Shown here in pieces: positions 14,747 to 43,712 of a stretch of DNA of 64,000 nt. Position numbers and translations under genes: made by a program. Position 1 is the first letter of the stretch; each line of letters opens with the position of its first letter. The notes beneath the pieces were generated by a model. The model saw only the letters and a list, made by a program, of their open reading frames with translations, was not told the origin of the DNA and did no database searches. This DNA is from a virus, in the IMG/VR virus record IMGVR_UViG_3300042731_005302; one strand, written 5' to 3'.

Positions 14747-14983
14747 TTACATAACACCGTAAACTTCGTCTGTACTGCCGACGATGACGACCAAGCCGTC
14801 CTCAAGCCCAGTGGAATCTCCGGGGTGAAGCTCACCAGCTCGTCTAGCAGTACGATAGGCCACAGAGGGATGAACCCGTTTAGGGTAGTATCCTCCCAGA
14901 AATGCTAACTCTTCGTAAAAGATTTTGTCCCCTAAACGGGCGGCCTGCAGGGAGTGCGTTCGGCCATTGATTGTTATGTTCAC
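14747..14983 (-). CDS. hypothetical small protein (possible beta-grasp fold)
   Basis: 78-aa ORF coupled to its upstream gene. MNITINGR...GDSTGLEDGLVVIVG resembles a ThiS/ubiquitin-like pattern. Confidence 0.45.
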   Translation of the reverse strand: MNITINGRTHSLQAARLGDKIFYEELAFLGGYYPKRVHPSVAYRTARRAGELHPGDSTGLEDGLVVIVGSTDEVYGVM

Positions 14984-29579: not shown

Positions 29580-30812
29580 TTAGGAGAAGTCAAGCAGCTT
29601 GAACGCTTCATCCATCAGGCGATAGGTCAGTTCGCCGGCATCGAAGCGCATAGCGGTGGACCGCTGCAGAACCAGGTCCTGGATGGCCGAATACTGGGCC
29701 GAAGCGTTCACCACCCGGCGCAGAGCATAGCGGCTATCGAACAGCAGGATCTGATCAGCCGGGATAGTACCGGTCGGAACCACCATGGCATTCGGCACTC
29801 CGACGGCCCAATTCAGGACGTTCGGCTCCACGTTCAGGCCGTAGTTGCCCAGATCGCCAGCGTTTCCGCCAGTGGTCCGAGGATCGAAGATTACGGGCCG
29901 ATCGGTACGCTTCTGAACCGCCAGGAAGGCGTCCAGATCGCACAGCATGGAGTCGTAAGACACCTTGCGGGTCGGATCGTACAGAGCCTTCAGCCACGCC
30001 GTCTGAGTCATGACCCCGCCAGTAGCCGCTGCATCGTAGGTAGACGCATTGACCGCCGTCAGAGCCGCCTGACCGGCGTCGGTGTTACCTGCTACGACAT
30101 CATTGATGTCTTCCCACAGCTTGGCGTAACGCTCGCCCTGAGCCTGCTGCAGGAGAATCGTGGAAACCAGGTTCAGAGCAGTGTTGCGCTGGGCCTGTTC
30201 ACTGATCTGCAGACCGATGCTGGTGGTGATGATGCTCTTCGAGTACTGGCTGGCAGTGATGGATACCAACTGGCGCGGCATGGTGTTCTGAGCGATAGGC
30301 TGAGAACGCTCATCACGCGGAGCAGTCACATCGATCTGAGGCTGGGTGAACATCTCAGTCTGGATGACATCAGTCTCCGAGATCATTCTAGCCCAAACCG
30401 CAGCCTCTACGCCGTAGTCCTCGACCAGAGCCTCATTCATGAGACGCATAACTGTCTCAGGGAAGAACAAGCGAGTGGCAGGGGTGGTGCCCTGAGTGCT
30501 GGGAGCCACCACGGTGGAGCCGGAAGCCAGCTGCAGGCCAGACGGCCGCTGTACGCCGGACATCACATCATAGACGGTGGAGGCCAGGATGCCGCGCTTG
30601 GCGTTTGGCTTGGCATGTACGCCCAAGTTCAAACAGGCTTGGGTGAACACATCACCGTAGTACGGATCAGCGTCCGGGTATTTGTGTGCAAGATAGGACG
30701 ACAGACTCATGCCGGTGTTGGAGGCGTTCTCATAGTCATGGAGAGTGATCTCACCCTCTTTCTTGACATCGCCGCCAGCAGAGCTGACGTAAAAGAATTT
30801 AACTTCGTTCAT
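29580..30812 (-). CDS. major capsid protein
   Basis: 410 aa with a GGAGAA SD. Follows the protease/scaffold and decoration genes and is followed by a terminator. Confidence 0.7.
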   Translation of the reverse strand: MNEVKFFYVSSAGGDVKKEGEITLHDYENASNTGMSLSSYLAHKYPDADPYYGDVFTQACLNLGVHAKPNAKRGILASTVYDVMSGVQRPSGLQLASGSTVVAPSTQGTTPATRLFFPETVMRLMNEALVEDYGVEAAVWARMISETDVIQTEMFTQPQIDVTAPRDERSQPIAQNTMPRQLVSITASQYSKSIITTSIGLQISEQAQRNTALNLVSTILLQQAQGERYAKLWEDINDVVAGNTDAGQAALTAVNASTYDAAATGGVMTQTAWLKALYDPTRKVSYDSMLCDLDAFLAVQKRTDRPVIFDPRTTGGNAGDLGNYGLNVEPNVLNWAVGVPNAMVVPTGTIPADQILLFDSRYALRRVVNASAQYSAIQDLVLQRSTAMRFDAGELTYRLMDEAFKLLDFS

Positions 30813-31346: not shown

Positions 31347-32831
31347 TTACGCCGACTCTTCTACAGGATGCAGGCCCAGGCTGGCCGCCACCACTTCAGG
31401 AGGAATCTCTTCGGCCCCGCCTTCAGAAATAGACTTCTGGCCGCTGGTGAATCTCTCCTCGAACTGGGCTTTGGTAGCGGTATAAAACTTAACTACTTGG
31501 GCCGGCTCGGAAGCGCTCAGATCACTGGGAGTCTGGCCGATCCGGACCTGCATATCACGAGCCGCGTCTCTGGCCACAGCCAACAGACTCCCGATAGTAC
31601 CTGCCTGAGCCTCAGCCGTAGCAGTTGCTGTAGCCAGGTTGGCCTCAGCAGCGGCCAGATCACGCTGAGCGGTGCGAAGCTCCTCACGGAGAAATGCTAC
31701 CATCTCGGAAGGCTGTTCTGTCTCGGCTGCCGGAGTATTGTCGTTGGCCTGGGTTTCAGGCGTCTCTTCCTCAGAAGCCTCGGTTTCAGGGGTTTCAGAC
31801 TCATGACCAGCCGTACCCTCAGAGTCTGTGTTCTCAGAAGGAGCTTGCCCCAGGGCGGCCAACTGCTCTTCGCTCATCTCGATTTTCTTAGCCATGAGGC
31901 CTCCACGCAGTAGAATTGAGTTTGCAATGTGACTATATTGAACCTGTGATTGATTGCCTAGATTACTCTGATCCAAGCGACCAAGCAAAGATTCCAAATC
32001 TGTGACGCTGTCAGCCAGCCCTAGCTGTACTGCTTCTTCCATGAAGAACGTCTTACCTTGGCCCCACTCAGACTCATCTTCAAGAGAGACGGGCCGGCGG
32101 GCTGCGACATGCTGGGTAAAGAACCCACCAATTGTGGAGACCTTTTCCTGCAGCATGTCTAATGCTTTCTGAGAGATCGGCTCAGACGGATGGCCGAGGG
32201 CCTTATACTCTCCGGAGCGAACGACTCGGCGGTCGATGCCTCGGTCCTTCAACATCCCGGCAATCGAGGTATATTCGATCACTGCGCCGATAGATCCAGC
32301 TTCAGCCATGCGTCCGCCGTAAATCTTCTGGGTTTCAGCAGCCAGCCAGTATCCAGCAGAAGCAGCCTGACGCTTGATAAAAGAGTATGAAGGAGTATCC
32401 TTGCCAATCTCTCGTATGGCAGAGCCTGCCGTCTCAACCCCGGAGGCACTACCACCTGGAGTGGACCAAAGATACAGCAAAGAAGTTACGTCTGGATCTT
32501 CAGAGAGCCGGCGGGCGGCATAGGTTATAGAATCATACGAAACCAAGCCGAACCATGCGTTAAAGTAACTGGAATCATCAACCAGAGGGCCGTCTACTTC
32601 CACCACGCCGACAGACCCAACCTTGAAACTAATGGAATCCGCTAGGAACTCCATCAGCCTGACAACCGGGTCCTCGTCATCATCTTCGTCTCCATCAGAA
32701 GCAAACAATGCCACTGACTGGGGAGAGATATTAGGATGCTCTAGCAGGTAGGCGTTGGCATCAGCCAACTGCAGGTAGGAGCGCTCATCTCCAAGCCAAA
32801 TATCCGGGACTCTGTATAGAAACTTGTGCAT
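31347..32831 (-). CDS. S49 (SppA/ClpP-like) prohead protease fused to an acidic scaffold-like C-terminus
   Basis: LWSTPGGSASG and QAASAGYWLAA (catalytic Ser context). C-terminal Glu/Thr/Ala-rich coiled region. Confidence 0.8.
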   Translation of the reverse strand: MHKFLYRVPDIWLGDERSYLQLADANAYLLEHPNISPQSVALFASDGDEDDDEDPVVRLMEFLADSISFKVGSVGVVEVDGPLVDDSSYFNAWFGLVSYDSITYAARRLSEDPDVTSLLYLWSTPGGSASGVETAGSAIREIGKDTPSYSFIKRQAASAGYWLAAETQKIYGGRMAEAGSIGAVIEYTSIAGMLKDRGIDRRVVRSGEYKALGHPSEPISQKALDMLQEKVSTIGGFFTQHVAARRPVSLEDESEWGQGKTFFMEEAVQLGLADSVTDLESLLGRLDQSNLGNQSQVQYSHIANSILLRGGLMAKKIEMSEEQLAALGQAPSENTDSEGTAGHESETPETEASEEETPETQANDNTPAAETEQPSEMVAFLREELRTAQRDLAAAEANLATATATAEAQAGTIGSLLAVARDAARDMQVRIGQTPSDLSASEPAQVVKFYTATKAQFEERFTSGQKSISEGGAEEIPPEVVAASLGLHPVEESA

Positions 32832-32907: not shown

Positions 32908-33252
32908 CTACCACCTACAACTATCCCCGGTGAACTGCACATGCCCAATAAGCGTCTGTGCAGGGGAAGCATCAGTTACAACCAAGAACTTGAGGGTGTA
33001 CAAAACACCTGCCTGCATGCCTGAAACGGTAGCCAAAGCAACTTGACCCGTCGGGATCGTGCTGCCCAAAATATCCATGGGCCGATCACTTATCTGCTGG
33101 CCAGTGATAGTCAGATCCGAGGACCCCTCCTCCGTTACCGTAGGAGAGCCAGTAAGCAATTCCCCAGGATACAGATCCTCAGCAAAAGAGGCTCTGATGG
33201 TCCTGGTAGACCCCGGAGGAACTCCGGGGCGTTGTGGAGCTAACGATCCCAT
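32908..33252 (-). CDS. hypothetical protein (beta-rich)
   Basis: 114-aa ORF in the structural operon. Confidence 0.5.
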   Translation of the reverse strand: MGSLAPQRPGVPPGSTRTIRASFAEDLYPGELLTGSPTVTEEGSSDLTITGQQISDRPMDILGSTIPTGQVALATVSGMQAGVLYTLKFLVVTDASPAQTLIGHVQFTGDSCRW

Positions 33253-33261
33253 CTAAGGACA

Positions 33262-33633
33262 TTACACTGGAGCAAAGCCGCGAAGCTGGCGATAGATCTC
33301 ACGGGCATCCTTGGCTCCGGCCACCGCACCCTTGCCTTCAGGGAACCGAGCCCGAGCCCAGAGGGACACTCCACCGTTATCGGCCTTGGTGCCGTCTTTA
33401 ATGTGGATACGTAGAGCCCCTTTTGGGGGCGCTGCTACATCTGTACCGGCCACGCCAATCAGAACCTCAAACTTGGCAATACACTTAGCGACGGTGAGCC
33501 AGTACTGATCGTAGTCCTTCTCATCGACTCCAATCTCACCCAAAATCTCCGGGTAGAACTCGTCAGCCTGAGTTTCAATAAATCCAGGACCACGCACTGT
33601 GGCCCAATCTGGCAGCTGTACTTTACGGGGCAT
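33262..33633 (-). CDS. hypothetical protein
   Basis: 123-aa ORF. Confidence 0.5.
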   Translation of the reverse strand: MPRKVQLPDWATVRGPGFIETQADEFYPEILGEIGVDEKDYDQYWLTVAKCIAKFEVLIGVAGTDVAAPPKGALRIHIKDGTKADNGGVSLWARARFPEGKGAVAGAKDAREIYRQLRGFAPV

Positions 33634-33662
33634 GTCAATAACCTCTGGAATAAGACTAAAAC

Positions 33663-34103
33663 TTAAGAAGCTCGGACAAATCCCTCAGAATTTATCTGAG
33701 CGGTGATGTCGCTTCCGTCCGTAGTCACCGCGAAGTCGTGGTGAGTCAAGGGAATGCGCCCGGTGTCGGCAGCAGACTCTTCATACGCTACTACGAGCTT
33801 GGTCAACGTATTATTTGTCGCCCCGCCGGCAGGAGACCAAGTCTGGTCTCCTAGGTCAACATCAACCCAGTTGTTCGTGTCATCTACTTCGATAACTCCA
33901 GTAAGTCCTGTCTTCCTAGCATACGAGGTAAAGTCAGCCTCGGTATTACCGGCGGGAGTTAGCAGAGCGTCGATAGTGTCGTAGTCTACCAGTGTGGCTT
34001 CAGCCTCGTTTGCCTTCAGCAGAAGGACAAGGACCACTGTGTCACTGTCACGGATCTTCTCCGCGAAAGCACCCTTTGCAATATTGAAAACACCGTCGGC
34101 CAT
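33663..34103 (-). CDS. hypothetical protein
   Basis: 146-aa ORF directly downstream of the repeat protein. Confidence 0.5.
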   Translation of the reverse strand: MADGVFNIAKGAFAEKIRDSDTVVLVLLLKANEAEATLVDYDTIDALLTPAGNTEADFTSYARKTGLTGVIEVDDTNNWVDVDLGDQTWSPAGGATNNTLTKLVVAYEESAADTGRIPLTHHDFAVTTDGSDITAQINSEGFVRAS

Positions 34104-34117
34104 GATCCTTACCTCTA

Positions 34118-36589
34118 CTATGGTTTTGGGATTGAGAACTCTAAACGCTCTTGTGGCGTAATAAACTGTAGTTTATTACCTGGGATAACATACTGCAATC
34201 CCTCAGGAATAATTACTACTGCGCCGTGGATGGAAATGTGCAGGGCACTATCGATCTCTTGAGCTTGGTCCATGCTCACAGAGCGATAATAAGTAACATT
34301 TTGGCCGTAATCTGTTTCTGAGGCCTGACCCGTACCAAATACTCGGATGGCCGAAGCAGGTAAGGCAGAATCAGCTTCTTCAGCATAAACTATAGGTTTG
34401 ACCTTGCTGGACCCTACTGCAAACGCCGTGTCAGTCTCTACCGCTTGACCTACTACGCTGGCCGCACTCCAAGACACGGAAAAAGCTGAATCAGCTTCTT
34501 GAGATTGGCCTAAGTTAACAGCATAGGCCGGTACCACAGGAAGCGCAACATCTGTCTCTAGGGCTAGGCCAATGGCCAACTCTCTGAACCAATCAACTGA
34601 GAAGGCAGAATCGGTTTCTAGGGCCTGGCTTATCGACTTAGCCAAACTCCAAGAGATAGAGAATGCCGAGTCGGTTTCCTGGGCCTGTCCTACCACTGTA
34701 GCTACAGCAGGAGACACATCAAAAGCAGAATCAACTTCAGAAGCCTGGCCTACTGCCAATTCCCTGAACCAATCAACCGAGAAGGCCGAATCAACCTCTT
34801 GTGCCTGATTAACTAGAATTGCGCCACTGGATACGACCTCAAAAGCTGAATCAGTTTCCAGAGCTTGAGACAGGTGGGACGTTTTAAGGCTACCTAACGA
34901 GAACGCCGAGTCCGCCTCAAGCGCCAAGGACAGGGAGATCGATTTAAAGAGGTCTGTAGTAAGCGCAGAATCTGTCTCCAGGGCCTGTCCTAGCTCTAAT
35001 GCCTTAGTCCAAGACAATAAGAAGGCAGAGTCCGCCTCTTGAGCCTGCTGCAAAGCCCAAGCCTTACTAGCGTCAAGACCAAATGCTGCATCCGTCTCTG
35101 TACTCAGTCCCACGGAATATCCACGCAAGATAGTAGGTGCAAGGCCTGAGTCAGTTTCATTGGCCAGCCCAACTACGGTGGAAGACGAGGTGCTGACAGC
35201 AAATGCCGTATCTGACTCCGCAGCTTCCCCTAGTTCATAGGCTCTAAGGATAGCGACAGAGAAGGCAGAGTCAGCTTCTGAGGCTTGGCTAATCGCATAG
35301 CTTCTAACCAAGGCCATTGCAAAAGCAGTGTCTGCTTCCGTAGCTAATCCAGCCGGAATAATCCGCACCGCCGCTATATCGAACGAAGAATCTGCCTCTG
35401 AAGCCAGCCCCAAAGTGTAACTTCTTACAGGCGTGATAGCGAAAGCACTATCCGTCTCAACCGCTTGAGAGACAGAGACGAAGGCTCCAGCATCCTCGTA
35501 CTCTGCATCCCACCAGTTATGAGAAAGTGGATGCCCGCTAAGCCAGCCAGGATATACGTACTCAACTGTAGCCAGCGAGAAACTGGTATCCGTCTCAACT
35601 GCTTGCAGAACCAGCACAGATCTTGAGTACGAAATAGAAAAAGCAGAATCTGCTTCTAAAGCCTGACCTACAGCAGAAACCTTCAGGATTGACGCTGGCT
35701 GAGCGCTGTCAGATTCCTGAGCTTGGCCGGCTGAAAGATTTTTACTGGCTGAGGCTTGGAGAGCAGAGTTCGTCTCACTCGATATCCCTACCGCATAGCT
35801 TCTTTCTATCCCTGTAGAAAATGCGCTATCAGTCTCAGAGCTTTGCCCGACCGCTATAGTGGAACCCAGTTCCAAAGCAAACGCAGAGTCAGCTTCAGCA
35901 GCCTGACCAGCAGCGACTGACTTTACTTCAACAGCTGGTTGCGCACTATCCGCTTCAGAGGCCAACCCAACAGACACGGTCTTGATCGCCGTGACGGAGA
36001 ATGCACTATCTGTGCTGCTGGACTGACCTACACTCTTGGTCTTAGCGCCAGTAACCGGCTGCGCAGAGTCCGTCTCAGATGCCTGGTTTACAGGCTCCGT
36101 GATTGTGGCCGAATACTCCCCTTCTATACGTACATCGTAAATAGACGCAGTAGCACCATCAGGCCCGGCAGCCTTAACCCCATTACAGCGAACTCTAATA
36201 TTGCTGTAGTTGGGAAATCCTGACCCACCCCAATCAGCACTATTCAGAGTGGCAGAAAATTCCTGCTTGGTTACCGCTGCGCTGATACTGGCCTGAAGAG
36301 TATGTTTCGTAACACCGTTCTGGTCGGTAACAAGCAGCTCTACGGTGTCATTAGTACCGGCTGTTTTACTGAACCAAACATATATGACAGCACTGGTCCA
36401 TGTCTGCGCTTTGGTGGCCCAGGCCGCAGTACCCTCACTAGCAGATGAGCCTCCTACGGATATTCCTGGGGTAGCATTTAGATTTAGGCCGTCGGCAGAT
36501 GTAGTTGTGTTACCGTCATAGCTATTACCCGGATTACTGAATGAAGCCGGATTATAAGCATCTGTCGGTCTTAAGGTTTCAGTGGCCAC
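34118..36589 (-). CDS. 823-aa repeat protein: ~170-aa N-terminal domain plus ~30 tandem 20-aa E-[TA]-D-S-A-F repeats
   Basis: The translation shows the recurring ...GQAxExDSAFxxxxxxxxxx unit from about residue 175 to 790. The DNA shows a higher-order 180-bp periodicity (34581..34620 vs 34761..34800). Confidence 0.75.
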   Translation of the reverse strand: MATETLRPTDAYNPASFSNPGNSYDGNTTTSADGLNLNATPGISVGGSSASEGTAAWATKAQTWTSAVIYVWFSKTAGTNDTVELLVTDQNGVTKHTLQASISAAVTKQEFSATLNSADWGGSGFPNYSNIRVRCNGVKAAGPDGATASIYDVRIEGEYSATITEPVNQASETDSAQPVTGAKTKSVGQSSSTDSAFSVTAIKTVSVGLASEADSAQPAVEVKSVAAGQAAEADSAFALELGSTIAVGQSSETDSAFSTGIERSYAVGISSETNSALQASASKNLSAGQAQESDSAQPASILKVSAVGQALEADSAFSISYSRSVLVLQAVETDTSFSLATVEYVYPGWLSGHPLSHNWWDAEYEDAGAFVSVSQAVETDSAFAITPVRSYTLGLASEADSSFDIAAVRIIPAGLATEADTAFAMALVRSYAISQASEADSAFSVAILRAYELGEAAESDTAFAVSTSSSTVVGLANETDSGLAPTILRGYSVGLSTETDAAFGLDASKAWALQQAQEADSAFLLSWTKALELGQALETDSALTTDLFKSISLSLALEADSAFSLGSLKTSHLSQALETDSAFEVVSSGAILVNQAQEVDSAFSVDWFRELAVGQASEVDSAFDVSPAVATVVGQAQETDSAFSISWSLAKSISQALETDSAFSVDWFRELAIGLALETDVALPVVPAYAVNLGQSQEADSAFSVSWSAASVVGQAVETDTAFAVGSSKVKPIVYAEEADSALPASAIRVFGTGQASETDYGQNVTYYRSVSMDQAQEIDSALHISIHGAVVIIPEGLQYVIPGNKLQFITPQERLEFSIPKP

Positions 36590-36779
36590 TTAGTGCTAAC
36601 TCTCGGGCGAAAGCCCAGCCCTGGCCGACGACCGGGACTACCAGCCAATCCGGCAAGTGATGGCGCAGGGGATTGCGCGGCGAGAGCAGGACCAGTGTTG
36701 TGGCGTAATACAGCGAGCCCAGCCAGCGGGGGACGGTTGGCGGTGTGTGTCGCATGTCGAGGAGGTTGATAGGGTGCAT
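36579..36779 (-). CDS. possible small hydrophobic protein
   Basis: 66-aa ORF bridging the two flanking genes and overlapping the downstream start. Sits in a locally GC-rich segment. Coding status is uncertain. Confidence 0.3.
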   Translation of the reverse strand: MHPINLLDMRHTPPTVPRWLGSLYYATTLVLLSPRNPLRHHLPDWLVVPVVGQGWAFARELALSGH

Positions 36780-36784
36780 AAATG

Positions 36785-37576
36785 TCAATCCCCGCTACAG
36801 ACTGATGCTCTTTCGCTTGCGTTGAGCGCCCTGTTGTAGAGCCTAATGTTATCTATTACTCCGTCAAATGCTCTACCAGTGTCAGGTGTTCCCACTCTGA
36901 ACGCGATACCTACATAAACGTCCCTGCTCCCTGTATTGGGAGATCCTGGAACAGATACTGCCGTGCCGGTCTCCACGCAATCGACATATAGTCGTAGGTA
37001 CGATCCATCATGGACGGCAAAGAGATAATAAGAAACTCCTGTAGAAAGTGCTTGTGTCGAGATAACGCTATAAGGCGTGCTACTGACATAAAAAGATGCC
37101 TCTATCTTCCCGCTTGCGTGTTCCCGTATAGAATAATTGTATCCAGTAACGGAGGACGCATCTGATTTAGTAACTATTCCCGCGTAATCGGTACTGGATG
37201 TCTTTTTTATCCGTACCCCTATAGTAAATTCATCCAGATCTAAAGATGTTGAATCCGTGGCGAGTCCGTACTCATTGGTTTGATCAAAATCTAACGCGTA
37301 CCCAGACCCATTTAGCCCGGCGACCCAATCCTCAGGATCCGTGTTGTACAGAGTCAGATTGTTGCTGTTGCCACTGGCATCGGTTGCAGTAGACCCGCTT
37401 CCCTCGTCGAATTTCCACCACCCAACCAATCCATCCGTAATCTCAAACGGCGTAAACGCATCCACCACCATCGACCCATAGACGGTGGATGGCCATTGTG
37501 GGCGCTGATTGATGTCGCCGGCAAAGGCGAAGACTGCCGTCGCCGCGAGAAGAAAGGAGAGGATTTTATTGCGCAT
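36785..37576 (-). CDS. LamG/concanavalin-A-like lectin domain protein with Sec signal peptide
   Basis: N-terminus MRNKILSFLLAATAVFAFA/GD. GLVGWWKFDEGSGSTATDASGNSNN...FDGVIDNIRLYNRAL is the classic Laminin_G_3 signature. Confidence 0.7.
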   Translation of the reverse strand: MRNKILSFLLAATAVFAFAGDINQRPQWPSTVYGSMVVDAFTPFEITDGLVGWWKFDEGSGSTATDASGNSNNLTLYNTDPEDWVAGLNGSGYALDFDQTNEYGLATDSTSLDLDEFTIGVRIKKTSSTDYAGIVTKSDASSVTGYNYSIREHASGKIEASFYVSSTPYSVISTQALSTGVSYYLFAVHDGSYLRLYVDCVETGTAVSVPGSPNTGSRDVYVGIAFRVGTPDTGRAFDGVIDNIRLYNRALNASERASVCSGD

Positions 37577-37587
37577 GGTTTTGGCTC

Positions 37588-38295
37588 TTAGGGCAGGGTC
37601 CAGCCTGTACCAATCTCGCCGTCCTGAATAGTGCCGGCGTTGATGCGATCCAGCAGGTTGAAGTAGCGGATTATGTTGGGATCGGCCGCTGACTGGAACC
37701 TTGTACTGGTATTGTCGTATACGGTTTGCATGTTGATGCCCTGCACATCGGTGGGCAGTGTTTGCCCGTCCACGATGCGGGACAGCAGGGACATCATAAT
37801 GGCCAGGTCACGAGTGAACTCATCCGTGGCGAAATGGGCACTGATCGATTCGGAGGCGACGTTGCGCAGGTTGATCTTGCGCTGATCGTTATTCAGGTCT
37901 ACCACCCGATGAACCTGCTGGAACGTATCCGTAGTTGTACACTCAGGGTCATAGCAGGTACTGACGTTCTGGCCACAAACCAAATAAGGCGACTCCACAC
38001 GGGAGAGATTGGAGTCGTAATCCGGGAAAGCCCCGGCACCTTGAACCTGGAGCATGGCGAAATTCGCCGGATACCCGGGGTCAATACCGCAAGGCTCCGT
38101 GTCACAATCGTAGGTATCTGGGTCCAGCGCTGGCCAAGAACGCAGACCGCCCACGGTGGAGCAGTCTGTGGTGTCGATCAGTTGCCACTGGGCTGTGTGA
38201 TCAACAGGGTAAGTCAAATCGGCACGCACCGAATAAGCAACAGACATCAAACCGACGCCCCAAAACAATGCCGCAACAATCATTTTCACGTTCAT
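37588..38295 (-). CDS. Cys-rich protein with Sec signal peptide
   Basis: MNVKMIVAALFWGVGLMSVAYSVRA/D. The predicted mature part contains 7 Cys. Confidence 0.55.
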   Translation of the reverse strand: MNVKMIVAALFWGVGLMSVAYSVRADLTYPVDHTAQWQLIDTTDCSTVGGLRSWPALDPDTYDCDTEPCGIDPGYPANFAMLQVQGAGAFPDYDSNLSRVESPYLVCGQNVSTCYDPECTTTDTFQQVHRVVDLNNDQRKINLRNVASESISAHFATDEFTRDLAIMMSLLSRIVDGQTLPTDVQGINMQTVYDNTSTRFQSAADPNIIRYFNLLDRINAGTIQDGEIGTGWTLP

Positions 38296-39026
38296 TAGTA
38301 ATGCCCCTGTAGAGTAATGACCAGACCTTTCTCTGTGCCCCCAGTAGAAACTTGATCAACTTGAGCACACAACTTAGAATCATTTGCAATTGAACCAGCG
38401 CTTACACTAGCTGTTCCGTCATCGACATTGGCGTTATACGCAATATCCAGCTTATTGGTCCCCATGATTGTAGTGCCATCATCATGTATATCGACAACCA
38501 GGGTTCCGCTTGTTCCTCCTTGCGTATTAACTGAGGCCGAAACGCTGGTTATAGTGAAGGCACCACTGGTCCAATAGAAACAAGCAAGATCATCAGTACC
38601 TGAAGAAATCTGGCTGACATCGTTGGTAATACGCCAGATGATTTCCTTGCCGATGTATTTCTTCAGTCTTGAAGCCGCCGACTTCCGGTTGGTCCCAGCG
38701 CCACCATCATCAACCAGAATCAGGTCCGCATCCGCCAGGTCTGCGCCGATATCGGTCCCGCCATCTAGGTTAATGTCGGCAATATCTCCGTCCCAACCGC
38801 CTCCAGGAAGGTCGCCGACATCGCACTTTCTCAGTTCGCCGGTAGAGGCCCAACAGACCAAGTAATCTCCTGCTGCAGGAGAAACTATCTCAGTCAAGTC
38901 TGTAACAGCAATCGACTCTGCAGGGCCTGTGCCCGCAGTGAGACGCCCCACAATGTCCCATTGGTCTACTGCAACCGCAGGAGCCGCTATAAGCAGGCTT
39001 AGAAGTACGGCGAATAGCCTCTTCAT
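38295..39026 (-). CDS. fibre-like protein with Sec-type signal peptide
   Basis: MKRLFAVLLSLLIAAPAVA/VD. ADADLILVDDGGAGTNRKSAASRLKKYI resembles motifs seen in phage fibre/structural proteins. Confidence 0.55.
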   Translation of the reverse strand: MKRLFAVLLSLLIAAPAVAVDQWDIVGRLTAGTGPAESIAVTDLTEIVSPAAGDYLVCWASTGELRKCDVGDLPGGGWDGDIADINLDGGTDIGADLADADLILVDDGGAGTNRKSAASRLKKYIGKEIIWRITNDVSQISSGTDDLACFYWTSGAFTITSVSASVNTQGGTSGTLVVDIHDDGTTIMGTNKLDIAYNANVDDGTASVSAGSIANDSKLCAQVDQVSTGGTEKGLVITLQGHY

Positions 39027-39028
39027 CG

Positions 39029-39427
39029 TTACACGTCCACTAGATTGTTGGTTATACTAACCCAATCGCCGTCTTTAAAGGCATAGTAATTGCCATCAGA
39101 TGCCGGAGGACTTATCAGGTCGTCCACTTTAACCGCATAGACGGTCAAGCCACTGGTGCCCAAGGTGCCGTGAGCAGCTTGTATAGAGACCCTGGTTAGT
39201 GTCCCGCCACTGGAAGACCAAGTCGCGTTCCACACCTCGAAATTACCTGAAGCATCAAGAGCAGCAATTACAACAGAATCGGTATCGTCAAAGTCAGTGT
39301 TAGCGTCCGCCGCAGCTTCAGCAAAGGTGCGCCCACGGGTCAGGGCAGTTCCGCTCAGGGTGATGACAGTGCCAGAGCGAGAACACGCTGATTCGCCAGC
39401 TAAATCTGGAGATTTAATGGTAGCCAT
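39029..39427 (-). CDS. small fibre protein with foldon-like C-terminus
   Basis: C-terminal PPASDGNYYAFKDGDWVSI compares with the T4 fibritin foldon [20 protein letters not shown]. Confidence 0.5.
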   Translation of the reverse strand: MATIKSPDLAGESACSRSGTVITLSGTALTRGRTFAEAAADANTDFDDTDSVVIAALDASGNFEVWNATWSSSGGTLTRVSIQAAHGTLGTSGLTVYAVKVDDLISPPASDGNYYAFKDGDWVSITNNLVDV

Positions 39428-39469
39428 GGGCCTATACTACTGTTTGTTGCTATCGATTAGTAGTTATCT

Positions 39470-40021
39470 TTATGGGATAACCAAGCCTGTAGCCGCCCCT
39501 AGCACGACCTTTCCCAGCAGGATGCCGGTGGTGGCCAACGCCTGGTAGGTAGCAGCATCAGGATTATCCACGTAGCTCTGAGAGGCCTTACCAAGTACTT
39601 TGAGGCGGGCATCAAGAATGGCCCAGGCCGTGCGGGATTGAATAGACAGGTCAGGCAGACGGCCTTGAATCAATGTGGCAGCCTCCTGGTAGACTTCTTT
39701 CCCGGTCAAGTCCCATTCTTGTACGTCGTCTATCTCAGGCATCACCCCCAAAGACAAAGCCACCTCGACCTGCGCAGCCAAAGACATGGCCTGTTCCTGC
39801 AACTGCTGAGCCATTTCCCATTCTCTGGTTGTGAACGCTGCCCGGTCCTCTTGCAGGGCCTCCCACAGCGTCATGCGGGCCTCATTGGCCCGTTCTACCT
39901 TGGCTTGGGCGGATGTAAGGGTCTCGACCGGGGGCATGGTCTTACAGCCCTGCAAAGATGCGACCACTAGGATCGTCAGGGAAGCGAGTATGGAGACTAA
40001 AATGTGTTTGTAATGAATCAT
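39470..40021 (-). CDS. lipoprotein with hydrophobic C-terminal tail (u-spanin-like architecture)
   Basis: MIHYKHILVSILASLTILVVASLQGC lipobox, a helical middle section, and C-terminal ALATTGILLGKVVLGAATGLVIP. Confidence 0.55.
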   Translation of the reverse strand: MIHYKHILVSILASLTILVVASLQGCKTMPPVETLTSAQAKVERANEARMTLWEALQEDRAAFTTREWEMAQQLQEQAMSLAAQVEVALSLGVMPEIDDVQEWDLTGKEVYQEAATLIQGRLPDLSIQSRTAWAILDARLKVLGKASQSYVDNPDAATYQALATTGILLGKVVLGAATGLVIP

Positions 40022-40176
40022 GATGGTTTCTCTTTATCCGTGTAAGTGTTTAATATCCGCTACGACGGCATCAAACTTATGCAATGCCGACGTGACTAAG
40101 AATTCTGAGCGCTTTCTCTGCTTGTCGGCCTTATTTGTACGCCTCTTAAAGGCCAACCAACATGACTTGAAGCAGC

Positions 40177-40383
40177 TTATTCTTTCCCGGTCCTCCCCAT
40201 CCGGTCCTTTATGATAAGCAAAACATCGGATACAGCGGAAAACCGCTCTAAAAAAGAGTTGAGCAGTGTTTCGTGGTGCTTTTTGTCGGCCAGCCGCTCC
40301 TGCCTGCAGAGAAGGAACATGCCGAGGCACACTGCCGCAAGAAGGTATCCTTTCGATACCAGGTACTCCAGTAATGCTTCCAT
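40177..40383 (-). CDS. possible small single-pass membrane protein
   Basis: 68 aa with YLLAAVCLGMFLLC and then a charged tail. The SD is weak. Confidence 0.35.
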   Translation of the reverse strand: MEALLEYLVSKGYLLAAVCLGMFLLCRQERLADKKHHETLLNSFLERFSAVSDVLLIIKDRMGRTGKE

Positions 40384-40470
40384 CGTGAGTAGATCTCATA
40401 CCAAGCCTCTGAAAATTTTACCTTAAGATTTCAAAGTTTTACATAAAAGAAGTTTGACTGATACAAATTG

Positions 40471-41934
40471 TCACACCCTCTTGCTTTGATCTCTTCCTCC
40501 AGAGGAAGTAGGCGTCTGACTAGACACCTGCCTCCCGTTCGGGTCGCCATTCGGACTCGGCAATTCGCTCATCCCTTTGCCCTGATAGAACATTGTGCCT
40601 GACAGTGGCGGAGCCCCTGCGGGCCTAGCTCCTGTTCCAAGTATAGAAGCGGCCTCATCATCGGTATAGAACCCAAGGCTCAGTAGCTCAAGCACTCGGT
40701 TCTGCTTGATGCTTTTATGGGCCTCAAGCTCGTTCTCCGGGCGCAAATCGATAGGATTGAACTTGAACTTTACATAGACATCAATTCCCAGCAGACGCAC
40801 CGCCAACGTCAGGGCTCGGCTGAGGACTTTCTCTACCGGCCCATGCAAGGCCGCTGCCACTTTGGAAAACAGCATGGATTCCGTAGACGCTACGTTTTGA
40901 GATCCGCCAAGCCGCAGCCCCAAAATAGAAGGATTTGCCTTCAAGGCGGAAGCTGTCAGACCAGACATGGCATCCAGCAGGTTCTTGTAGTCCGCCTTCT
41001 CTCCAACGGTCTCGATGGAATCCACTTGAGCCAGGTCATAAACCACCAGCGCATCTTCAGGCTGAAGGTTTTTCAGGACAGTCTCGATATCGCTGCGGAC
41101 AGATTCTAAGTATGTGGATAATTGGTCCGGGTTTTTATGAACCTTCGGGGGCGCAGACTGCACCACCTTCTGATAGTCCAGCTTGACGACGATGCGCGGC
41201 CCGCCTGTCTGCCGGACCACTCGGCGCATGTCTTCAATGAACTCGTCGTAGTGGAACAGCCGATGAAACCCGGAGATCAGAAAGGAAAGATTGTAGTTGA
41301 CATTGGCACTGCGCATGACCTCCCCTACCCATACGTTAGGCAGGTCCAGATCTACTTCTGCAGATTGCCCTGGCTCAGGCTTGAGTTTCTTCTGCGAAGG
41401 CCATCGCCGGCCCTTGCCGTCTGTCTTCCAGTTGATGGTGTCATAAGGAAACAACTGCAGCCTGTCAGGCATCTTATACTTATTCAGCACCAGCTCGCTT
41501 GAAACTCCACCTGTAAGGGCAGCCTCAAGCAAAGCCCGTTCTTTCAGTGTGCTGACATCCTCTTTGTCTGAAAACCCTTTGGTGTAGTCATATACCGTGT
41601 CCCACGAGGCCAAAATAGTTTCAGCCGCCCTCTGCCCTGCTACGCTGAACTGCTTAGTCCCAGTGTCGTAAGCCATGATGTAGTGGCCGGACATGGCCGT
41701 CTGCACCAACGACAATATAACAGAGCTGACCAGCCCGTCAGTATGGTACAACGTCCGTAGAGTGGCCGAGGGGTCAGTAATCTGGCGAACATCAGTGACT
41801 TGCCAGTTCGGATCGTATTGGTAGTCTTTCGGAAGCTGCTGATCTTTGATTCCTACTGCAGAAGGAACCTGGGACTGAACCTTATTGACCACTCTGCGCG
41901 GAAGGGTGACTACTGCATTTGCTGGGGCAGCCAT
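40471..41934 (-). CDS. portal protein
   Basis: 487 aa. Overlaps the terL stop. Assigned mainly from its canonical position after the large terminase. Confidence 0.65.
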   Translation of the reverse strand: MAAPANAVVTLPRRVVNKVQSQVPSAVGIKDQQLPKDYQYDPNWQVTDVRQITDPSATLRTLYHTDGLVSSVILSLVQTAMSGHYIMAYDTGTKQFSVAGQRAAETILASWDTVYDYTKGFSDKEDVSTLKERALLEAALTGGVSSELVLNKYKMPDRLQLFPYDTINWKTDGKGRRWPSQKKLKPEPGQSAEVDLDLPNVWVGEVMRSANVNYNLSFLISGFHRLFHYDEFIEDMRRVVRQTGGPRIVVKLDYQKVVQSAPPKVHKNPDQLSTYLESVRSDIETVLKNLQPEDALVVYDLAQVDSIETVGEKADYKNLLDAMSGLTASALKANPSILGLRLGGSQNVASTESMLFSKVAAALHGPVEKVLSRALTLAVRLLGIDVYVKFKFNPIDLRPENELEAHKSIKQNRVLELLSLGFYTDDEAASILGTGARPAGAPPLSGTMFYQGKGMSELPSPNGDPNGRQVSSQTPTSSGGRDQSKRV

Positions 41935-43712
41935 ATTTGACTCTCTTTATTGGGAGCAAACCCAGGCATTTTAGCCTTTGAAACGAAGGTGCCGTGCGGC
42001 AAAGCAGGCATGGCAGCGAACTGTCCTTCCATCATTTTAATCGCTGTGTACGCATATAACAAACTGAAGGCATAGTGGTCTTCTGTGTCAGACGAAACCC
42101 AGGCCTGTGTGGTCTCCCCTGTTGTCTCCGAAACTCTGTTTACACGCCTGAGTTTTTTCAGGTGAGTAATTAGAAGCTCAACCTCAGGATTGTCCTTCGG
42201 GAAAATAAACCTACCGGCATTAATGTCCTTAACCATGTCGGTAATCATCGCCGTCCGTGCAATGGTGATAATTTGCTCTACCTCGTTGAGTGAGTAATTT
42301 TCCAACCCCTTGATAGTTCTAGCAAAGTAAGCCGCCCACATCGTGTGATACCGGCTGCCCTGTATGAGCCTCCCCGGCACCGTCACGTCCGGCCCCCCGT
42401 CCACTATACCTTTATATACGCCGAACTGGTCTATTCGCTCCAGCGTCTCCTCCGACACCTTGTCTGTTCCGTCTCCGTTGATCTGCTGCCGTATCCGCTC
42501 CAGCCAATGGACCACGTACCTACCACCATGCTCGGACAGCACCGTCAAATGGCAGGTCTTGCCAACGTCCAGCCCCAACGCCGTACCAAGCATCCTCGAA
42601 GCGTCCGGCAGAGTCTGCAGACCTGACTTGGCCTTGTCCAGTGCGGCCTGCGCTACCGCCGCATCAGCCGGCAAGTGCGCATGGCCAAGCCCGAAGTTGA
42701 TCCAGTCGTCCGCCCGCTCATAGTTTTGAACCGCAGTGATAATCTTTTCGGTCGTATTGTATTTAGGAACGCAAAGTGGACTCACATAGAAGGTTTGAGT
42801 GGCCTTTTCCGGATATTTGGGCACCCAAGCCCTCAGAACAGGGTTCATCAAGTTCTCTCGCGTGACCTCGTTGCCGCAACAACGACATTTCACATACGAT
42901 TTGTCAGGCCGTACCCTGGGATCGTCCAATTCTGCCTTGGTCAGAGTGATCAGATCTCCGTCAAAACCAGGCAACACGATATCGACAATCGGGTCAACCT
43001 CCACCCACTGCCCACATTTCTCGTGGTAAACCATGTACACATTTTGACTTCCAGACTTATGCACCTTGTCTATCCCGTAATCAGGCAGAGTCGGAGTCGA
43101 AAAGTCCTGCAGAATCTCGGTCCCAGGCTCATTATGCGTCAATCGAGAAAGAAATGAGGTCAAAGCAGTTTGATTACAGAAATCTATTTCGTCCCGTATC
43201 ACCCCCCGACAAGGAACAGAAATCGCCTGCCCCGTCCGCTGCGCCCCGGTCAAGTACAGGAACGAATTCCCTATCCTTTTGAGCTTCGTACTGTCAACTT
43301 CCTTATGTTTCATTCGCTGCAACTGCGGTGAAGCCTCAATAGCCGGGTTGATTCTCGCGGTTGCAAACTGCCCCGCGTAAGTTGTTGTTTGTAAAGAATA
43401 AATCCAATGACTCCCGTCCAATAAAGTCATCAAGCCCAATATCTCCCGTGCCGACAACTCCGACACCCCGACCTGGGATGACTTTTTCACCCCAATATAG
43501 GGTGCCTCACAGATTAAAATTCCTAATTGATATTCGTGATCCTTGAAAGACCAGGGCAAACTCGGATCATGCGGACTCCTTAAATTCGCACACATCCATT
43601 CCGGCAGAGCCGCCCGCCCCGAGGTCCGATTCAAAGCCAGCCTCAGCCGCTCCAACCTCACCCGATAAGCCGGGTCCAGCTTCGGCGTGGTGTGAACCGC
43701 AGGGGCCGTCAT
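41910..43712 (-). CDS. terL: terminase large subunit (GpA-like)
   Basis: Walker A-like GVKKSSQVGVSE, Walker B-like VIRDEIDF, and CRCCGNEV Zn-finger as in lambda GpA-type terminases. 600 aa. Confidence 0.8.
   Translation of the reverse strand: MTAPAVHTTPKLDPAYRVRLERLRLALNRTSGRAALPEWMCANLRSPHDPSLPWSFKDHEYQLGILICEAPYIGVKKSSQVGVSELSAREILGLMTLLDGSHWIYSLQTTTYAGQFATARINPAIEASPQLQRMKHKEVDSTKLKRIGNSFLYLTGAQRTGQAISVPCRGVIRDEIDFCNQTALTSFLSRLTHNEPGTEILQDFSTPTLPDYGIDKVHKSGSQNVYMVYHEKCGQWVEVDPIVDIVLPGFDGDLITLTKAELDDPRVRPDKSYVKCRCCGNEVTRENLMNPVLRAWVPKYPEKATQTFYVSPLCVPKYNTTEKIITAVQNYERADDWINFGLGHAHLPADAAVAQAALDKAKSGLQTLPDASRMLGTALGLDVGKTCHLTVLSEHGGRYVVHWLERIRQQINGDGTDKVSEETLERIDQFGVYKGIVDGGPDVTVPGRLIQGSRYHTMWAAYFARTIKGLENYSLNEVEQIITIARTAMITDMVKDINAGRFIFPKDNPEVELLITHLKKLRRVNRVSETTGETTQAWVSSDTEDHYAFSLLYAYTAIKMMEGQFAAMPALPHGTFVSKAKMPGFAPNKESQIWLPQQMQ

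What the first reader, a model, noticed from the sequence alone, without database searches (positions are those of the whole stretch)
34118..36589. 823-aa protein built from ~30 tandem 20-residue E-[TA]-D-S-A-F repeats
After a ~170-aa N-terminal beta-rich domain, the protein repeats a 20-aa unit (consensus roughly vGqAxEtDSAFsvxxxxxxx) about 30 times. One interruption occurs (YPGWLSGHPLSHNWWDAEYEDAGAF) and the C-terminus is short and unique. At the DNA level there is also a 180-bp (3-unit) higher-order periodicity: 34581..34620 and 34761..34800 are about 85-90 percent identical. I cannot place this repeat in a family I know. The regular period suggests a solenoid or fibre. The near-identical DNA units could drive length variation by recombination.
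Basis: seen in the sequence. Interest (0 to 1): 0.65.

Follow-up and report, generated by a model that had tools for sequence, protein, structure and literature searches.

The report
Repeat-stalk fibre in a phage cassette
This 823-residue phage protein really is built from 30 copies of a 20-residue unit, and it is most likely the stalk of an accessory virion fibre encoded by a widespread, uncharacterised gene cassette that many unrelated phages carry among their head and neck genes.

Summary
The ORF (34118-36589, minus strand, 823 aa) and its 30 in-register 20-residue units are confirmed. The DNA-level claims are not. Units average 45% DNA identity, there is no general 180-bp period, and the longest exact repeat is 14 nt. 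The array is therefore old and kept by selection on the protein.

No Pfam, NCBIfam or PDB sequence match exists. The repeat defines a large unnamed family: 2042 cluster representatives, and PHROG 14065 "unknown function". Members have variable N-terminal domains (LamG, CBM, glycosidase-like, TIG), 3-31 units and a short C-tail.

The main new result is linkage. A 146-aa protein encoded next door (1839 homologs, 70-79% identical, unnamed) accompanies repeat proteins in 42 of 53 viral loci, always on the same strand. A 123-aa partner often joins them. In this window the cassette ends with a 114-aa relative of the Gp77 fibre-tail adaptor of podophage GP4.

Cassettes sit among capsid, portal and connector genes of many unrelated lineages. 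The best reading is an accessory neck or head fibre with a repeat stalk. AlphaFold2 could not resolve the fold, so virion location, oligomeric state and ligand are inferred.

The parts
34118..36589 (-). Repeat protein, 823 aa (whole gene, stop codon included)
   Evidence: ORF list. Independent gene call of the same length. 278+ homologs with best E = 2.8e-96. PHROG 14065, E = 1.4e-33.
36095..36589 (-). N-terminal non-repeat domain, residues 1-165: beta-rich, family unknown, candidate distal or ligand-binding end
   Evidence: No Pfam hit even at E <= 1. 46% identical to the N-terminal region of P0071. Beta strands predicted at pLDDT 30-46.
35555..36094 (-). Repeat units 1-9, residues 166-345
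   Evidence: Anchors at strict 20-aa spacing.
35477..35554 (-). 26-aa insertion, residues 346-371, containing a degenerate unit core (AEYEDAGAF)
   Evidence: The anchor spacing at this point is 46 instead of 20. The sequence was read directly.
34217..35476 (-). Repeat units 10-30, residues 372-791, uninterrupted
   Evidence: AF2 places strands at unit positions 5-11 and 17-2' with pLDDT 60-75 over residues 370-600.
34118..34216 (-). C-terminal tail, residues 792-823, with three copies of a ~10-aa mini-repeat (IIPEGLQYV / IPGNKLQFI / TPQERLEFS): candidate docking end
   Evidence: Similar tails in P0005, P0101, P0078 and P0107. The motif occurs in 7 of 94 tails versus 0.7 expected by shuffling.
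33663..34103 (-). o146: 146-aa highly conserved cassette partner (phrog_26662), candidate adaptor or 'arm'
   Evidence: 1839 homologs; the top 120 are 70-79% identical and unnamed. It lies next to the repeat gene in every homolog locus examined. Across viral loci the linkage is 42 of 53. hhalign against Bxb1 gp31 'tail wing arm' gives 58% probability.
33262..33633 (-). o123: 123-aa second cassette partner, function unknown
   Evidence: Homologs lie directly after o146 in L005, L006, L008 and L009. Present in 22 of 72 viral loci.
32908..33252 (-). o114: 114-aa Gp77-like (Ig-like) fibre-tail adaptor
   Evidence: Its only Pfam hit is PF23148, E = 0.022. Eight of 12 family members hit PF23148, best E = 2.4e-8. 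The family profile hits the GP4 virion chain 8jou_D at E = 0.006. Three homologs carry a precomputed PF23148 annotation.
36785..37576 (-). 263-aa LamG_3 protein with a signal-peptide-like N-terminus, immediately upstream. Association with the cassette is uncertain; in many homologs a LamG_3 domain is fused to the repeat protein.
   Evidence: PF13385, E = 2.7e-19. LamG_3 fusions in P0010, P0014, P0016, the L009 550-aa protein and others.

Best explanation
The 823-aa protein is the shaft-forming subunit of an accessory virion fibre of an uncultured long-tailed siphophage.

Anatomy:
- A ~165-aa beta-rich N-terminal head domain.
- A long beta-rich stalk made of 30 (31 counting the degenerate one) 20-residue units.
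- A 32-aa C-terminal tail.

Each unit probably forms two short strands. One carries A-x-E-[TA]-D-[ST]-A. The other carries the conserved R/K and hydrophobic residues. The conserved G-[QL] forms the tight turn, and the invariant E and D lie on one face opposite the basic residue.

The gene belongs to a horizontally mobile cassette. Its partners are a very conserved 146-aa protein, a 123-aa protein and, in this phage, a 114-aa Gp77-type Ig-like adaptor.

By analogy with podophage GP4, I propose three things. The Gp77-like protein forms a ring on the head-to-tail junction. The fibre docks there through its C-terminal end, with o146 and o123 acting as adaptor or assembly factors. The variable N-terminal domain is held away from the virion to make weak, reversible contacts with host surface glycans. 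Unit number would set the reach.

Shown here: the repeat, the family and its modular architecture, the gene linkage, the head/neck-module location and the Gp77 homology.

Inferred: virion incorporation, attachment site and polarity, oligomeric state, the glycan ligand and the roles of o146 and o123.
For: Phage structural context:
- All on the minus strand, in one tightly spaced block: TerL, portal, cassette, S49 protease, major capsid protein, tail assembly chaperones, tape measure protein.
- There is no terminator-like site in the gap upstream of the gene. Terminator-like sites in the region are only slightly above chance: 14 found versus 8.3 +/- 3.0 expected.

Family architecture:
- Members have a variable N-terminal region (median 248 aa), a median of 14 units and a C-tail of about 58 aa.
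- N-terminal domains include LamG_3, CBM_4_9, apiosidase-like glycoside hydrolase, TIG and PepX_C. I take these to be domain types typical of phage receptor-binding or depolymerase proteins.

Linkage:
- An o146 homolog lies next to the repeat gene in L001-L006 and L010.
- Of 53 IMG/VR loci with at least 3 kb downstream of o146, 42 have a repeat ORF, always on the same strand. Thirty-four lie within 3 kb downstream. For close o146 copies the figure is 17 of 17.

Location:
- Upstream neighbours are capsid proteins (six Pfam families), portals, terminases and proteases.
- Downstream neighbours include tail tube, head completion, tail terminator and gp10-like genes (individual loci).

Adaptor:
- o114 belongs to the Gp77 family.
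- Homolog P0049 has a Gp77 domain fused to its C-terminus after the repeats.
- L032 has a Gp77-like ORF directly after its repeat ORF.
- In GP4, 15 copies of this Ig-like protein encircle the head-to-tail adaptor and hold the fibres (PMC11445570).

Other support:
- The repeat is maintained by purifying selection on the protein.
- AF2 predicts one hairpin per unit, pLDDT 60-75 over residues 370-600.
- There is a precedent for multi-gene neck fibres with a distal carbohydrate-binding module in Anabaena phage A-1(L) (PMC10966104).
Against: - There is no direct evidence that any cassette protein is in a virion.
- Only three cases link the cassette to a Gp77-like adaptor (the window, L032 and P0049). 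Neck attachment may therefore not be general.
- The cassette position varies. It is upstream of the portal in L006, next to the baseplate and a polysaccharide lyase in Pam4, and at a prophage edge near the endolysin in L003.
- The proposed polarity, with a C-terminal anchor and an N-terminal distal domain, is the reverse of most phage fibres as I understand them.
- o146 is 70-79% identical across phages with unrelated head proteins. That is hard to square with binding lineage-specific virion parts.
- The o114 match to Pfam Gp77 is below the gathering score on its own (15.7 versus 27 bits).
- Two neighbouring genes carry signal peptides, which is unusual for virion proteins.
- The fold is unresolved: mean pLDDT is 47 and 36 for the two models, and fold searches gave no significant specific match.
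Confidence: 0.5

Rival explanations
1. It is a capsid-anchored head fibre. o146 would be a decoration-type protein that binds the HK97-fold capsid surface, at vertices or threefold sites. The repeat protein would project from it, as in phi29 head fibres or the RcGTA head spikes.
For: In many loci o146 lies directly after the major capsid protein gene, which I take to be the usual place for a decoration gene (L009; Galactica; aggregate upstream neighbours). High conservation of o146 across lineages would fit binding to a generic capsid feature.
Against: The cassettes occur with at least six different capsid Pfam families. In this window the cassette is separated from the capsid gene by the protease and a 147-aa gene. 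The cassette here contains a neck-type (Gp77) adaptor. The o146 profile does not match any solved decoration protein; its only weak match is a tail accessory adaptor.
Confidence: 0.2
2. It is a conventional distal tail fibre or side fibre attached at the baseplate or tail tip, acting as the primary receptor-binding protein.
For: Streptomyces phage homologs are annotated 'minor tail protein'. The Pam4 o146 homolog sits after the baseplate gene and before a polysaccharide lyase. L003 places the cassette at the end of the structural module, near the endolysin. The only structural lead for o146 is the Bxb1 tail-tip 'wing arm'.
Against: In this window the gene lies between the portal and the prohead protease. 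That is about 6 kb upstream of the tape measure gene and at least 12 kb from the distal tail genes. Across loci the flanks are head and connector genes, not baseplate genes. The 'minor tail protein' label is an unverified annotation.
Confidence: 0.12
3. It is not a virion component. It could be a moron-type cargo expressed from the late operon, for example a released or cell-surface glycan-binding or depolymerase protein, or an internal ejected protein.
For: The block between portal and protease is an unusual insertion of about 10 ORFs. Two of them, the LamG_3 263-aa protein and the 235-aa protein, have Sec-type signal peptides. P0071 shares the N-terminal domain and has a hydrophobic N-terminus. 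The cassette position is promiscuous.
Against: The repeat protein, o146, o123 and o114 have no signal peptide (sequences). The cassette is always co-oriented with, and embedded in, structural operons. It includes a homolog of a protein seen in a virion structure, 8jou_D. The fused LamG, CBM and glycosidase domains suggest an external rather than an internal location.
Confidence: 0.1

Closest known systems
Ralstonia podophage GP4 fibre-tail adaptor gp77 and its fibres (Pfam PF23148; PDB 8JOU)
   Same: o114 in this cassette is a sequence relative of gp77. One family member has the domain fused after the repeats. In GP4 the adaptor ring on the head-to-tail adaptor anchors the fibres (PMC11445570).
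   Different: The host virion here is a siphophage with a 2197-aa tape measure protein. No sequence similarity between the fibre proteins was found: PDB sequence searches gave no hit. GP4 did not appear among the o146 tblastn hits in the phage collection. Most cassettes lack a detectable Gp77-like gene: only 1 of 80 viral loci has one.
Neck fibres of Anabaena myophage A-1(L) (gp5 15-mer ring; gp82, gp81, gp80)
   Same: It is a multi-gene accessory fibre anchored at the neck on a 15-fold ring. It is long and flexible and has a distal carbohydrate-binding module of unproven role (PMC10966104).
   Different: No sequence similarity was detected. The A-1(L) stalk is a chain of about 14 separate trimeric gp81 'beads'. 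Here the stalk is one polypeptide with 30 internal repeats.
Mycobacteriophage Bxb1 tail wing (gp30 base, gp31 arm, gp33 brush; PDB 9D93)
   Same: It is a non-essential accessory appendage built from a small adaptor plus a low-complexity distal protein (PMC12646305). The C-terminal 46 residues of o146 align with gp31 (hmmsearch E = 0.13; hhalign 58% probability, pairwise E = 1e-4).
   Different: It is attached at the tail tip. The brush, gp33, is glycine-rich and unrelated to the E-T-D-S-A-F repeat. The similarity is below the level that proves homology.
20-residue beta-hairpin repeats of choline-binding and CROP domains (Pfam CW_binding_1; beta-beta-solenoid)
   Same: The period is the same at 20 residues. 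One hairpin per unit is the (low-confidence) prediction here. My description of the solenoid family comes from my own knowledge.
   Different: There is no Pfam match. The aromatic signature of choline-binding repeats is absent. Here the invariant residues are E, D, G and A. The context is viral, not cell-wall anchoring.
PHROG 14065 and PHROG 26662 (both 'unknown function')
   Same: The repeat protein matches phrog_14065 (E = 1.4e-33) and o146 matches phrog_26662 (E = 1.2e-24). Both families are therefore already catalogued.
   Different: Neither entry carries a function. The PHROG annotations returned here do not mention the repeat, the linkage between the two families or the head/neck location.

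Membership tests
PHROG 14065 (uncharacterised phage protein family) | Significant match to the family profile | tested here: met
   E = 1.4e-33, 117 bits, three stretches, residues 581-782 matched to profile positions 649-848 of 1152.
Pfam PF23148 Gp77 fibre-tail adaptor (applies to o114, not to the repeat protein) | The single sequence reaches the Pfam gathering score | tested here: not met
   o114 scores 15.7 bits (E = 0.022) against a cut-off of 27. It is nonetheless the only Pfam hit and covers profile positions 3-73 of 84.
Pfam PF23148 Gp77 fibre-tail adaptor (applies to o114) | Family-level homology, through homologs and a profile, to Gp77 and the solved GP4 chain | tested here: met
   Eight of 12 members of the o114 alignment hit PF23148, best E = 2.4e-8. 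Three homologs carry a precomputed PF23148 annotation. Profile A5 hits 8jou_D at E = 0.0062.
Pfam PF23148 Gp77 fibre-tail adaptor (applies to o114) | Forms a 15-copy ring around the dodecameric head-to-tail adaptor and holds fibres | not testable with these tools
   This needs cryo-EM of the particle or multimer modelling.
Trimeric phage fibres (triple beta-helix or triple beta-spiral shafts) | Homotrimeric, intertwined shaft | not testable with these tools
   Only monomer AF2 was available. Its low confidence is compatible with an obligate oligomer but does not show one.
Trimeric phage fibres | Sequence or fold match to a solved fibre shaft | tested here: not met
   There is no PDB sequence hit at E <= 1. 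Best Foldseek PDB hit has E = 0.28. BFVD hits are generic fibre-like proteins with TM-scores of 0.05-0.3.
CW_binding_1 / CROP-type 20-residue beta-hairpin solenoids | Pfam match and the conserved aromatic/glycine signature | tested here: not met
   No Pfam family at E <= 0.01. The unit profile is dominated by G3, A5, E7, D9 and A11, with no conserved aromatic pair.
CW_binding_1 / CROP-type 20-residue beta-hairpin solenoids | One beta-hairpin per 20-residue unit, stacked into a superhelix | tested here: inconclusive
   AF2 gives strand-turn-strand per unit at pLDDT 60-75 for residues 370-600 only. The 10-unit model failed. Covariation could not separate stacking from concerted evolution.
o146-linked repeat-fibre cassette (operational family defined here) | The repeat-bearing ORF is co-oriented with, and within a few kb of, an o146 homolog | tested here: met
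   In the window, o146 starts 14 nt after the repeat gene's stop codon. The same linkage holds in L001-L006 and L010 and in 42 of 53 viral loci. The window's order, repeat gene first, is the rare one: 2 of 42.
o146-linked repeat-fibre cassette | An o123-like gene adjacent to o146 | tested here: met
   The window has o123 29 nt after o146. Homologs are present in L005, L006, L008 and L009 and in 22 of 72 viral loci.
Neck or head accessory fibres (A-1(L) neck fibre, lactococcal neck passage structure, T4 whiskers as functional class) | Gene located in the head/neck part of the structural module | tested here: met
   In the window it lies between the portal and the prohead protease. Aggregate flanks across loci are capsid, portal, protease, connector and tail-tube genes.
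Neck or head accessory fibres | Physically attached at the neck or head of the particle | not testable with these tools
   This requires virion proteomics and EM.

The most novel reading that the evidence does not exclude
The cassette (o146, o123 and a repeat-stalk protein) could be a self-contained, horizontally mobile 'plug-in' appendage. Its near-invariant 146-aa adaptor would let it dock on virions of many unrelated head and tail lineages. The E-T-D-S-A-F 20-mer could be a new fibrous beta fold that current structure prediction cannot model. If so, phages would exchange reach-tunable glycan-binding fibres as a unit, independently of their tail receptor-binding machinery.
Probability: 0.3. 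Interest if true: 0.75.

Novelty: new variant of a known kind. Interest (0 to 1): 0.55.

Why it matters
Accessory neck and head fibres are increasingly seen in cryo-EM of phages, but their genes are rarely recognisable from sequence.

This finding contributes four things:
- A sequence signature: the 20-residue repeat.
- A highly conserved marker gene, o146, with 1839 homologs.
- A gene-order rule that together flag such an appendage in hundreds of uncultured phages (414 IMG/VR contigs; about 2000 repeat-protein clusters).
- A link between part of the family and the only structurally characterised fibre-to-neck adaptor, GP4 gp77.

If the model holds, it identifies a common mobile host-adhesion module. 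The N-terminal domains (LamG, CBM, glycosidase) could then help predict phage-glycan interactions. The stalk would also be a modular spacer of tunable length that might be useful for engineering. In addition, AlphaFold2 did not model the repeat or the N-terminal domain confidently, which makes them worthwhile targets for experimental structure work.

Tried and rejected
- AlphaFold2, full length, with a 48-sequence alignment: mean pLDDT 47. Only residues 370-600 reach 60-75.
- AlphaFold2 on a 10-unit block with an in-register alignment: pLDDT 36 with spurious helices. Discarded.
- Foldseek against PDB: best E = 0.28 (RsaA, curli and other beta-rich proteins). Not significant.
- Foldseek against BFVD: three hits at E <= 0.001, but TM-scores of 0.05-0.3 and rmsd of 17-54 Å. 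This says only 'generic viral fibre-like'.
- PDB sequence search with the repeat protein: nothing.
- PDB search with o146: only weak hits, to FN3 and to Bxb1 gp31.
- PDB search with the o123 profile: only chance-level ribosomal hits.
- Pfam on the N-terminal domain and its relatives at E <= 1: nothing usable.
- BLASTP of o114 against the fused Gp77-like domain of P0049: no pairwise similarity. The relationship shows only at profile level.
- Hypothesis that the fused Gp77 domain replaces o146: rejected, because L010 still encodes a 146-aa o146.
- Covariation analysis on 1069 three-unit windows: the top couplings were i to i+20. Same-position coupling is just as strong at d = 40, 60 and 80, so the signal is concerted evolution, not contact. 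It could not decide solenoid versus meander.
- Tandem Repeats Finder on the DNA: no arrays.
- Megablast of the structural block against the phage collection: no match.
- Test for copy-number variants: the exact protein is not indexed in the cluster table, and the only other assembly is 100% identical over 8441 nt. No information.
- GP4 structure paper (JMB 2023): not held in the library.
- Literature searches for the repeat or the cassette found no prior description.
Full report
OBSERVATION

The ORF at 34118..36589 (minus strand, GTG start, 823 aa) is real. The GTG directly follows an in-frame TAA, so it is the first possible start. An independent gene caller on a second assembly gives the same product.

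Thirty anchors of the type E-[TA]-D-S-A-F lie at exactly 20-residue spacing. Units 1-9 occupy residues 166-345 and units 10-30 occupy residues 372-791. A 26-residue insertion separates the two runs, and it contains a degenerate core (AEYEDAGAF).

Protein self-identity is 36% at lag 20, against 8% at lags that are not multiples of 20. The unit profile is [SA]-[VLI]-G-[QL]-A-x-E-[TA]-D-[ST]-A-[FLQ]-x-[VLI]-x-x-x-[RK]-x-hydrophobic. E7 and D9 are each present in 29 of 30 units.

The DNA-level statements do not hold:
- Tandem Repeats Finder finds nothing.
- Units average 45% DNA identity, with a maximum of 72%.
- Lags 60, 120, 180 and 240 score about the same.
- The two cited 40-nt segments are 80% identical. 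They belong to one old three-unit duplication: units 21-23 versus 24-26 share 61% DNA identity, z = 3.5.
- Third codon positions are only 31% identical between units.
- Invariant residues use all synonymous codons: E is GAG 15 / GAA 14, and Ser uses both TCN and AGY codons.
- The longest exact direct repeat is 14 nt.

The array is therefore ancient and held by selection on the protein. It offers little substrate for homologous recombination.

CONTEXT

The window is a phage. All on the minus strand are:
- the large terminase subunit (41910-43712);
- the portal (40471-41934);
- about ten unannotated ORFs, which include the repeat gene;
- an S49 prohead protease (31347-32831);
- the major capsid protein (29580-30812);
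- the tail assembly chaperones;
- a 2197-aa tape measure protein (21264-27857);
- the distal tail genes and a tail terminator.

The nearest cultured relatives share only about 31% terminase identity, and no annotated phage matches at the DNA level. Genes in the block are tightly spaced. There is no terminator-like site in the gap upstream of the repeat gene, and such sites in the region are only slightly above chance, 14 versus 8.3 +/- 3.0.

THE FAMILY

The repeat protein has no match in Pfam, NCBIfam or PDB sequences. It does match PHROG 14065, annotated 'unknown function'.

A word-indexed search found at least 278 homologs, essentially all unnamed. An exhaustive phmmer scan with units 10-30 against 1.84 billion cluster representatives found 2042 proteins at E <= 1e-3, 1280 at <= 1e-10 and 191 at <= 1e-30. 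Lengths reach 2420 aa.

The architecture is conserved:
- a variable N-terminal region (median 248 aa);
- a repeat array (median 14 units; this protein, at 30, is near the top; the period is mostly 20, with 18 and 21-23 variants);
- a short C-terminal tail (median about 58 aa).

N-terminal domains in other members include LamG_3, CBM_4_9, an apiosidase-like glycoside hydrolase with a collagen-binding-type domain, TIG and PepX_C. The N-terminal domain of the window protein has no family assignment.

Its C-tail carries three copies of a ~10-residue mini-repeat (hydrophobic-P-x3-L-x-hydrophobic). A minority of members share it: 7 of 94 tails, against 0.7 expected by shuffling.

THE CASSETTE

The most informative result came from the neighbours.

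The 146-aa protein encoded 14 nt downstream (o146, 33663-34103, phrog_26662) has a homolog beside the repeat gene in every homolog locus I opened:
- Streptomyces phage Galactica;
- a Nitrosomonas prophage;
- a Sedimenticola prophage;
- several metagenomic phages.

o146 has 1839 homologs. The best 120 are 70-79% identical, and none carries a name or a Pfam domain.

IMG/VR holds 414 contigs with an o146 relative. Among 53 fetched loci with at least 3 kb downstream of o146, 42 contain an ORF with three or more repeat units. All 42 are on the same strand, and 34 lie within 3 kb downstream. For the more similar o146 copies the figure is 17 of 17. The window's order, with the repeat gene upstream of o146, is the rare one (2 of 42).

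A second partner, o123 (33262-33633), follows o146 in L005, L006, L008 and L009, and in 22 of 72 viral loci.

The last gene of the block, o114 (32908-33252), is a relative of Pfam PF23148, the 'podophage GP4 fiber-tail adaptor gp77':
- On its own it scores below threshold (E = 0.022), though PF23148 is its only hit.
- Eight of 12 family members match, best E = 2.4e-8.
- Three homologs carry the annotation precomputed.
- The family profile hits the GP4 virion chain 8jou_D at E = 0.006.

Homolog P0049 has the architecture LamG - repeats - Gp77 domain in one polypeptide. L032 has a Gp77-like ORF directly after its repeat ORF. In GP4, fifteen copies of this Ig-like protein encircle the dodecameric head-to-tail adaptor and hold the fibres (PMC11445570).

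WHERE THE CASSETTE SITS

I ran aggregated Pfam scans of the two nearest large ORFs on each side of the cassette across the viral loci.

Upstream neighbours are capsid proteins of six different Pfam families (about 17 of 108 ORFs), portals (about 12), terminases, prohead proteases, SU10 adaptor and MuF. Downstream neighbours include tail tube, head completion, tail terminator and gp10-like proteins, but also portals, terminases and proteases.

The cassette therefore rides in the head/neck part of structural operons of many unrelated lineages. There are exceptions. In cyanophage Pam4, o146 follows the baseplate gene and precedes a polysaccharide lyase. In L003 the cassette lies at a prophage edge near the endolysin.

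STRUCTURE

The full-length AlphaFold2 model has a mean pLDDT of 47. Only residues 370-600 reach 60-75. There, each unit forms strand (positions 5-11) - loop (12-16) - strand (17 to 2 of the next unit), with G3-Q4 at the tight turn.

On that reading E7 and D9 share one face of a strand, and the conserved R/K18 lies on the partner strand. That arrangement would allow a ladder of ion pairs. This last point is my inference.

The second model, a 10-unit block, failed. Foldseek gave nothing significant against PDB and only generic fibre-like viral proteins against BFVD.

A covariation analysis on 1069 three-unit windows gave top couplings at i to i+20. Same-position coupling is equally strong at 40, 60 and 80 residues. 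The signal therefore reflects protein-specific repeat flavour (concerted evolution), not contacts. Fold class, oligomeric state and length remain open.

As an inference only, a flat meander would give a stalk of about 29 nm, and one unit per solenoid turn would give about 14 nm.

For o146, the only structural lead is its C-terminal 46 residues. They align with Bxb1 gp31, the 'tail wing arm' adaptor of a non-essential appendage (hmmsearch E = 0.13; hhalign 58% probability; PMC12646305). This is suggestive, not proof.

INTERPRETATION

The best-supported reading is an accessory virion fibre. The repeat array is the stalk. The variable N-terminal domain is the distal, probably glycan-binding end. 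The C-terminal end docks on the particle. In this phage the docking site is most likely a Gp77-type ring at the head-tail junction, with o146 and o123 as adaptor or assembly factors.

The neck fibres of Anabaena phage A-1(L) are a functional precedent but not homologs. Five trimeric fibres sit on a 15-mer ring and carry a distal carbohydrate-binding module (PMC10966104).

The rivals are a capsid-anchored head fibre, a distal tail fibre and a non-virion cargo protein. The evidence for and against each is listed in the rival-explanations section.

What is shown: the repeat, the family, the linkage, the genomic location and the Gp77 homology.

What is inferred: virion incorporation, attachment site, polarity, oligomeric state and ligand.

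NOVELTY

Accessory neck and head fibres are a known kind of structure, and both protein families are already catalogued in PHROGs as 'unknown function'. The following features appear in none of the libraries and papers I could search:
- the 20-residue repeat;
- its tight linkage to a near-invariant 146-aa partner;
- the cassette's spread across unrelated phage lineages;
- its connection to the Gp77 adaptor.

I rate the finding a new variant of a known kind. It is of moderate to good interest, mainly as a well-defined target for structural and functional work.

Noticed in passing
window 36785-37576 (-) and 37588-38295 (-): Two consecutive genes inside the structural operon encode proteins with Sec-type signal peptides: MRNKILSFLLAATAVFAFA|GD for the 263-aa LamG_3 protein, and MNVKMIVAALFWGVGLMSVAYSVRA|D for the 235-aa protein of unknown family. 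Secreted proteins between the portal and the capsid genes are unusual. The LamG protein also weakly resembles the fimbrial protein TafC (NCBIfam E = 1.6e-14, far below cut-off).
   Followed up: partly
window 32908-40399 (-): The portal gene and the prohead protease / capsid genes are separated by about 7.6 kb holding 10-11 ORFs. Six of them (121, 183, 132, 243, 235 and 69 aa) have no functional match in Pfam, PHROGs or NCBIfam. In the lambda- and HK97-type phages I know, the portal and protease genes are adjacent.
   Followed up: partly
window 14980-15444 (-) relative to 15401-21263 (-): The tail terminator gene (PF13554, phrog_179) lies downstream of the distal tail genes, not between the head and tail-tube genes. 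Between the capsid gene and the tail chaperones there are only an 87-aa and a 156-aa ORF. The head-tail connector genes are therefore displaced or unrecognised.
   Followed up: no
window 21264-27857 (-): The tape measure protein is 2197 aa. At roughly 1.5 Å per residue (a rule of thumb from my own knowledge) this implies a tail of about 300 nm or more.
   Followed up: no
window 33663-34103 (-); proteins P0121-P0240: o146 is strikingly conserved: 70-79% identity across more than 100 cluster representatives from phages with unrelated head genes, and 40-50% in Streptomyces and cyanobacterial phages. It has no name or Pfam family. It would make a good marker gene for the cassette.
   Followed up: yes
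P0008 (1224 aa, from a 7.7-Mb genome) and the family as a whole: Some members show clear higher-order periodicity; P0008 repeats a 4-unit, 80-aa block. Across the family, positions 16-20 of the unit correlate better at two and four units apart than between neighbours. That hints at a 2- or 4-unit super-repeat, which the window protein itself does not show.
   Followed up: partly
P0071 (472 aa): The N-terminal domain of the window protein is 46% identical to a domain in P0071. P0071 has a hydrophobic (signal or transmembrane) N-terminus and no E-T-D-S-A-F anchors. The head domain therefore also occurs outside the repeat-fibre architecture.
   Followed up: partly
window 36579-36788 (-): A 69-aa ORF (TTG start; called as 66 aa by an independent gene caller) bridges the LamG gene and the repeat gene. 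It overlaps the stop codon of the former and the start of the latter by a few bases. It has no homologs in PHROGs. It may be a real, translationally coupled small gene or it may be spurious.
   Followed up: no
L007 (Pseudanabaena phage Pam4) 12001-17424: In Pam4 the o146 homolog (Pam4_34) precedes a 'polysaccharide lyase' and a 1290-aa protein that lack recognisable E-T-D-S-A-F units. o146 can therefore partner with non-repeat enzymatic fibre or spike proteins in a tail-module context.
   Followed up: partly
window 1-64000: No tRNA or tmRNA genes were detected in the whole window (ARAGORN).
   Followed up: yes
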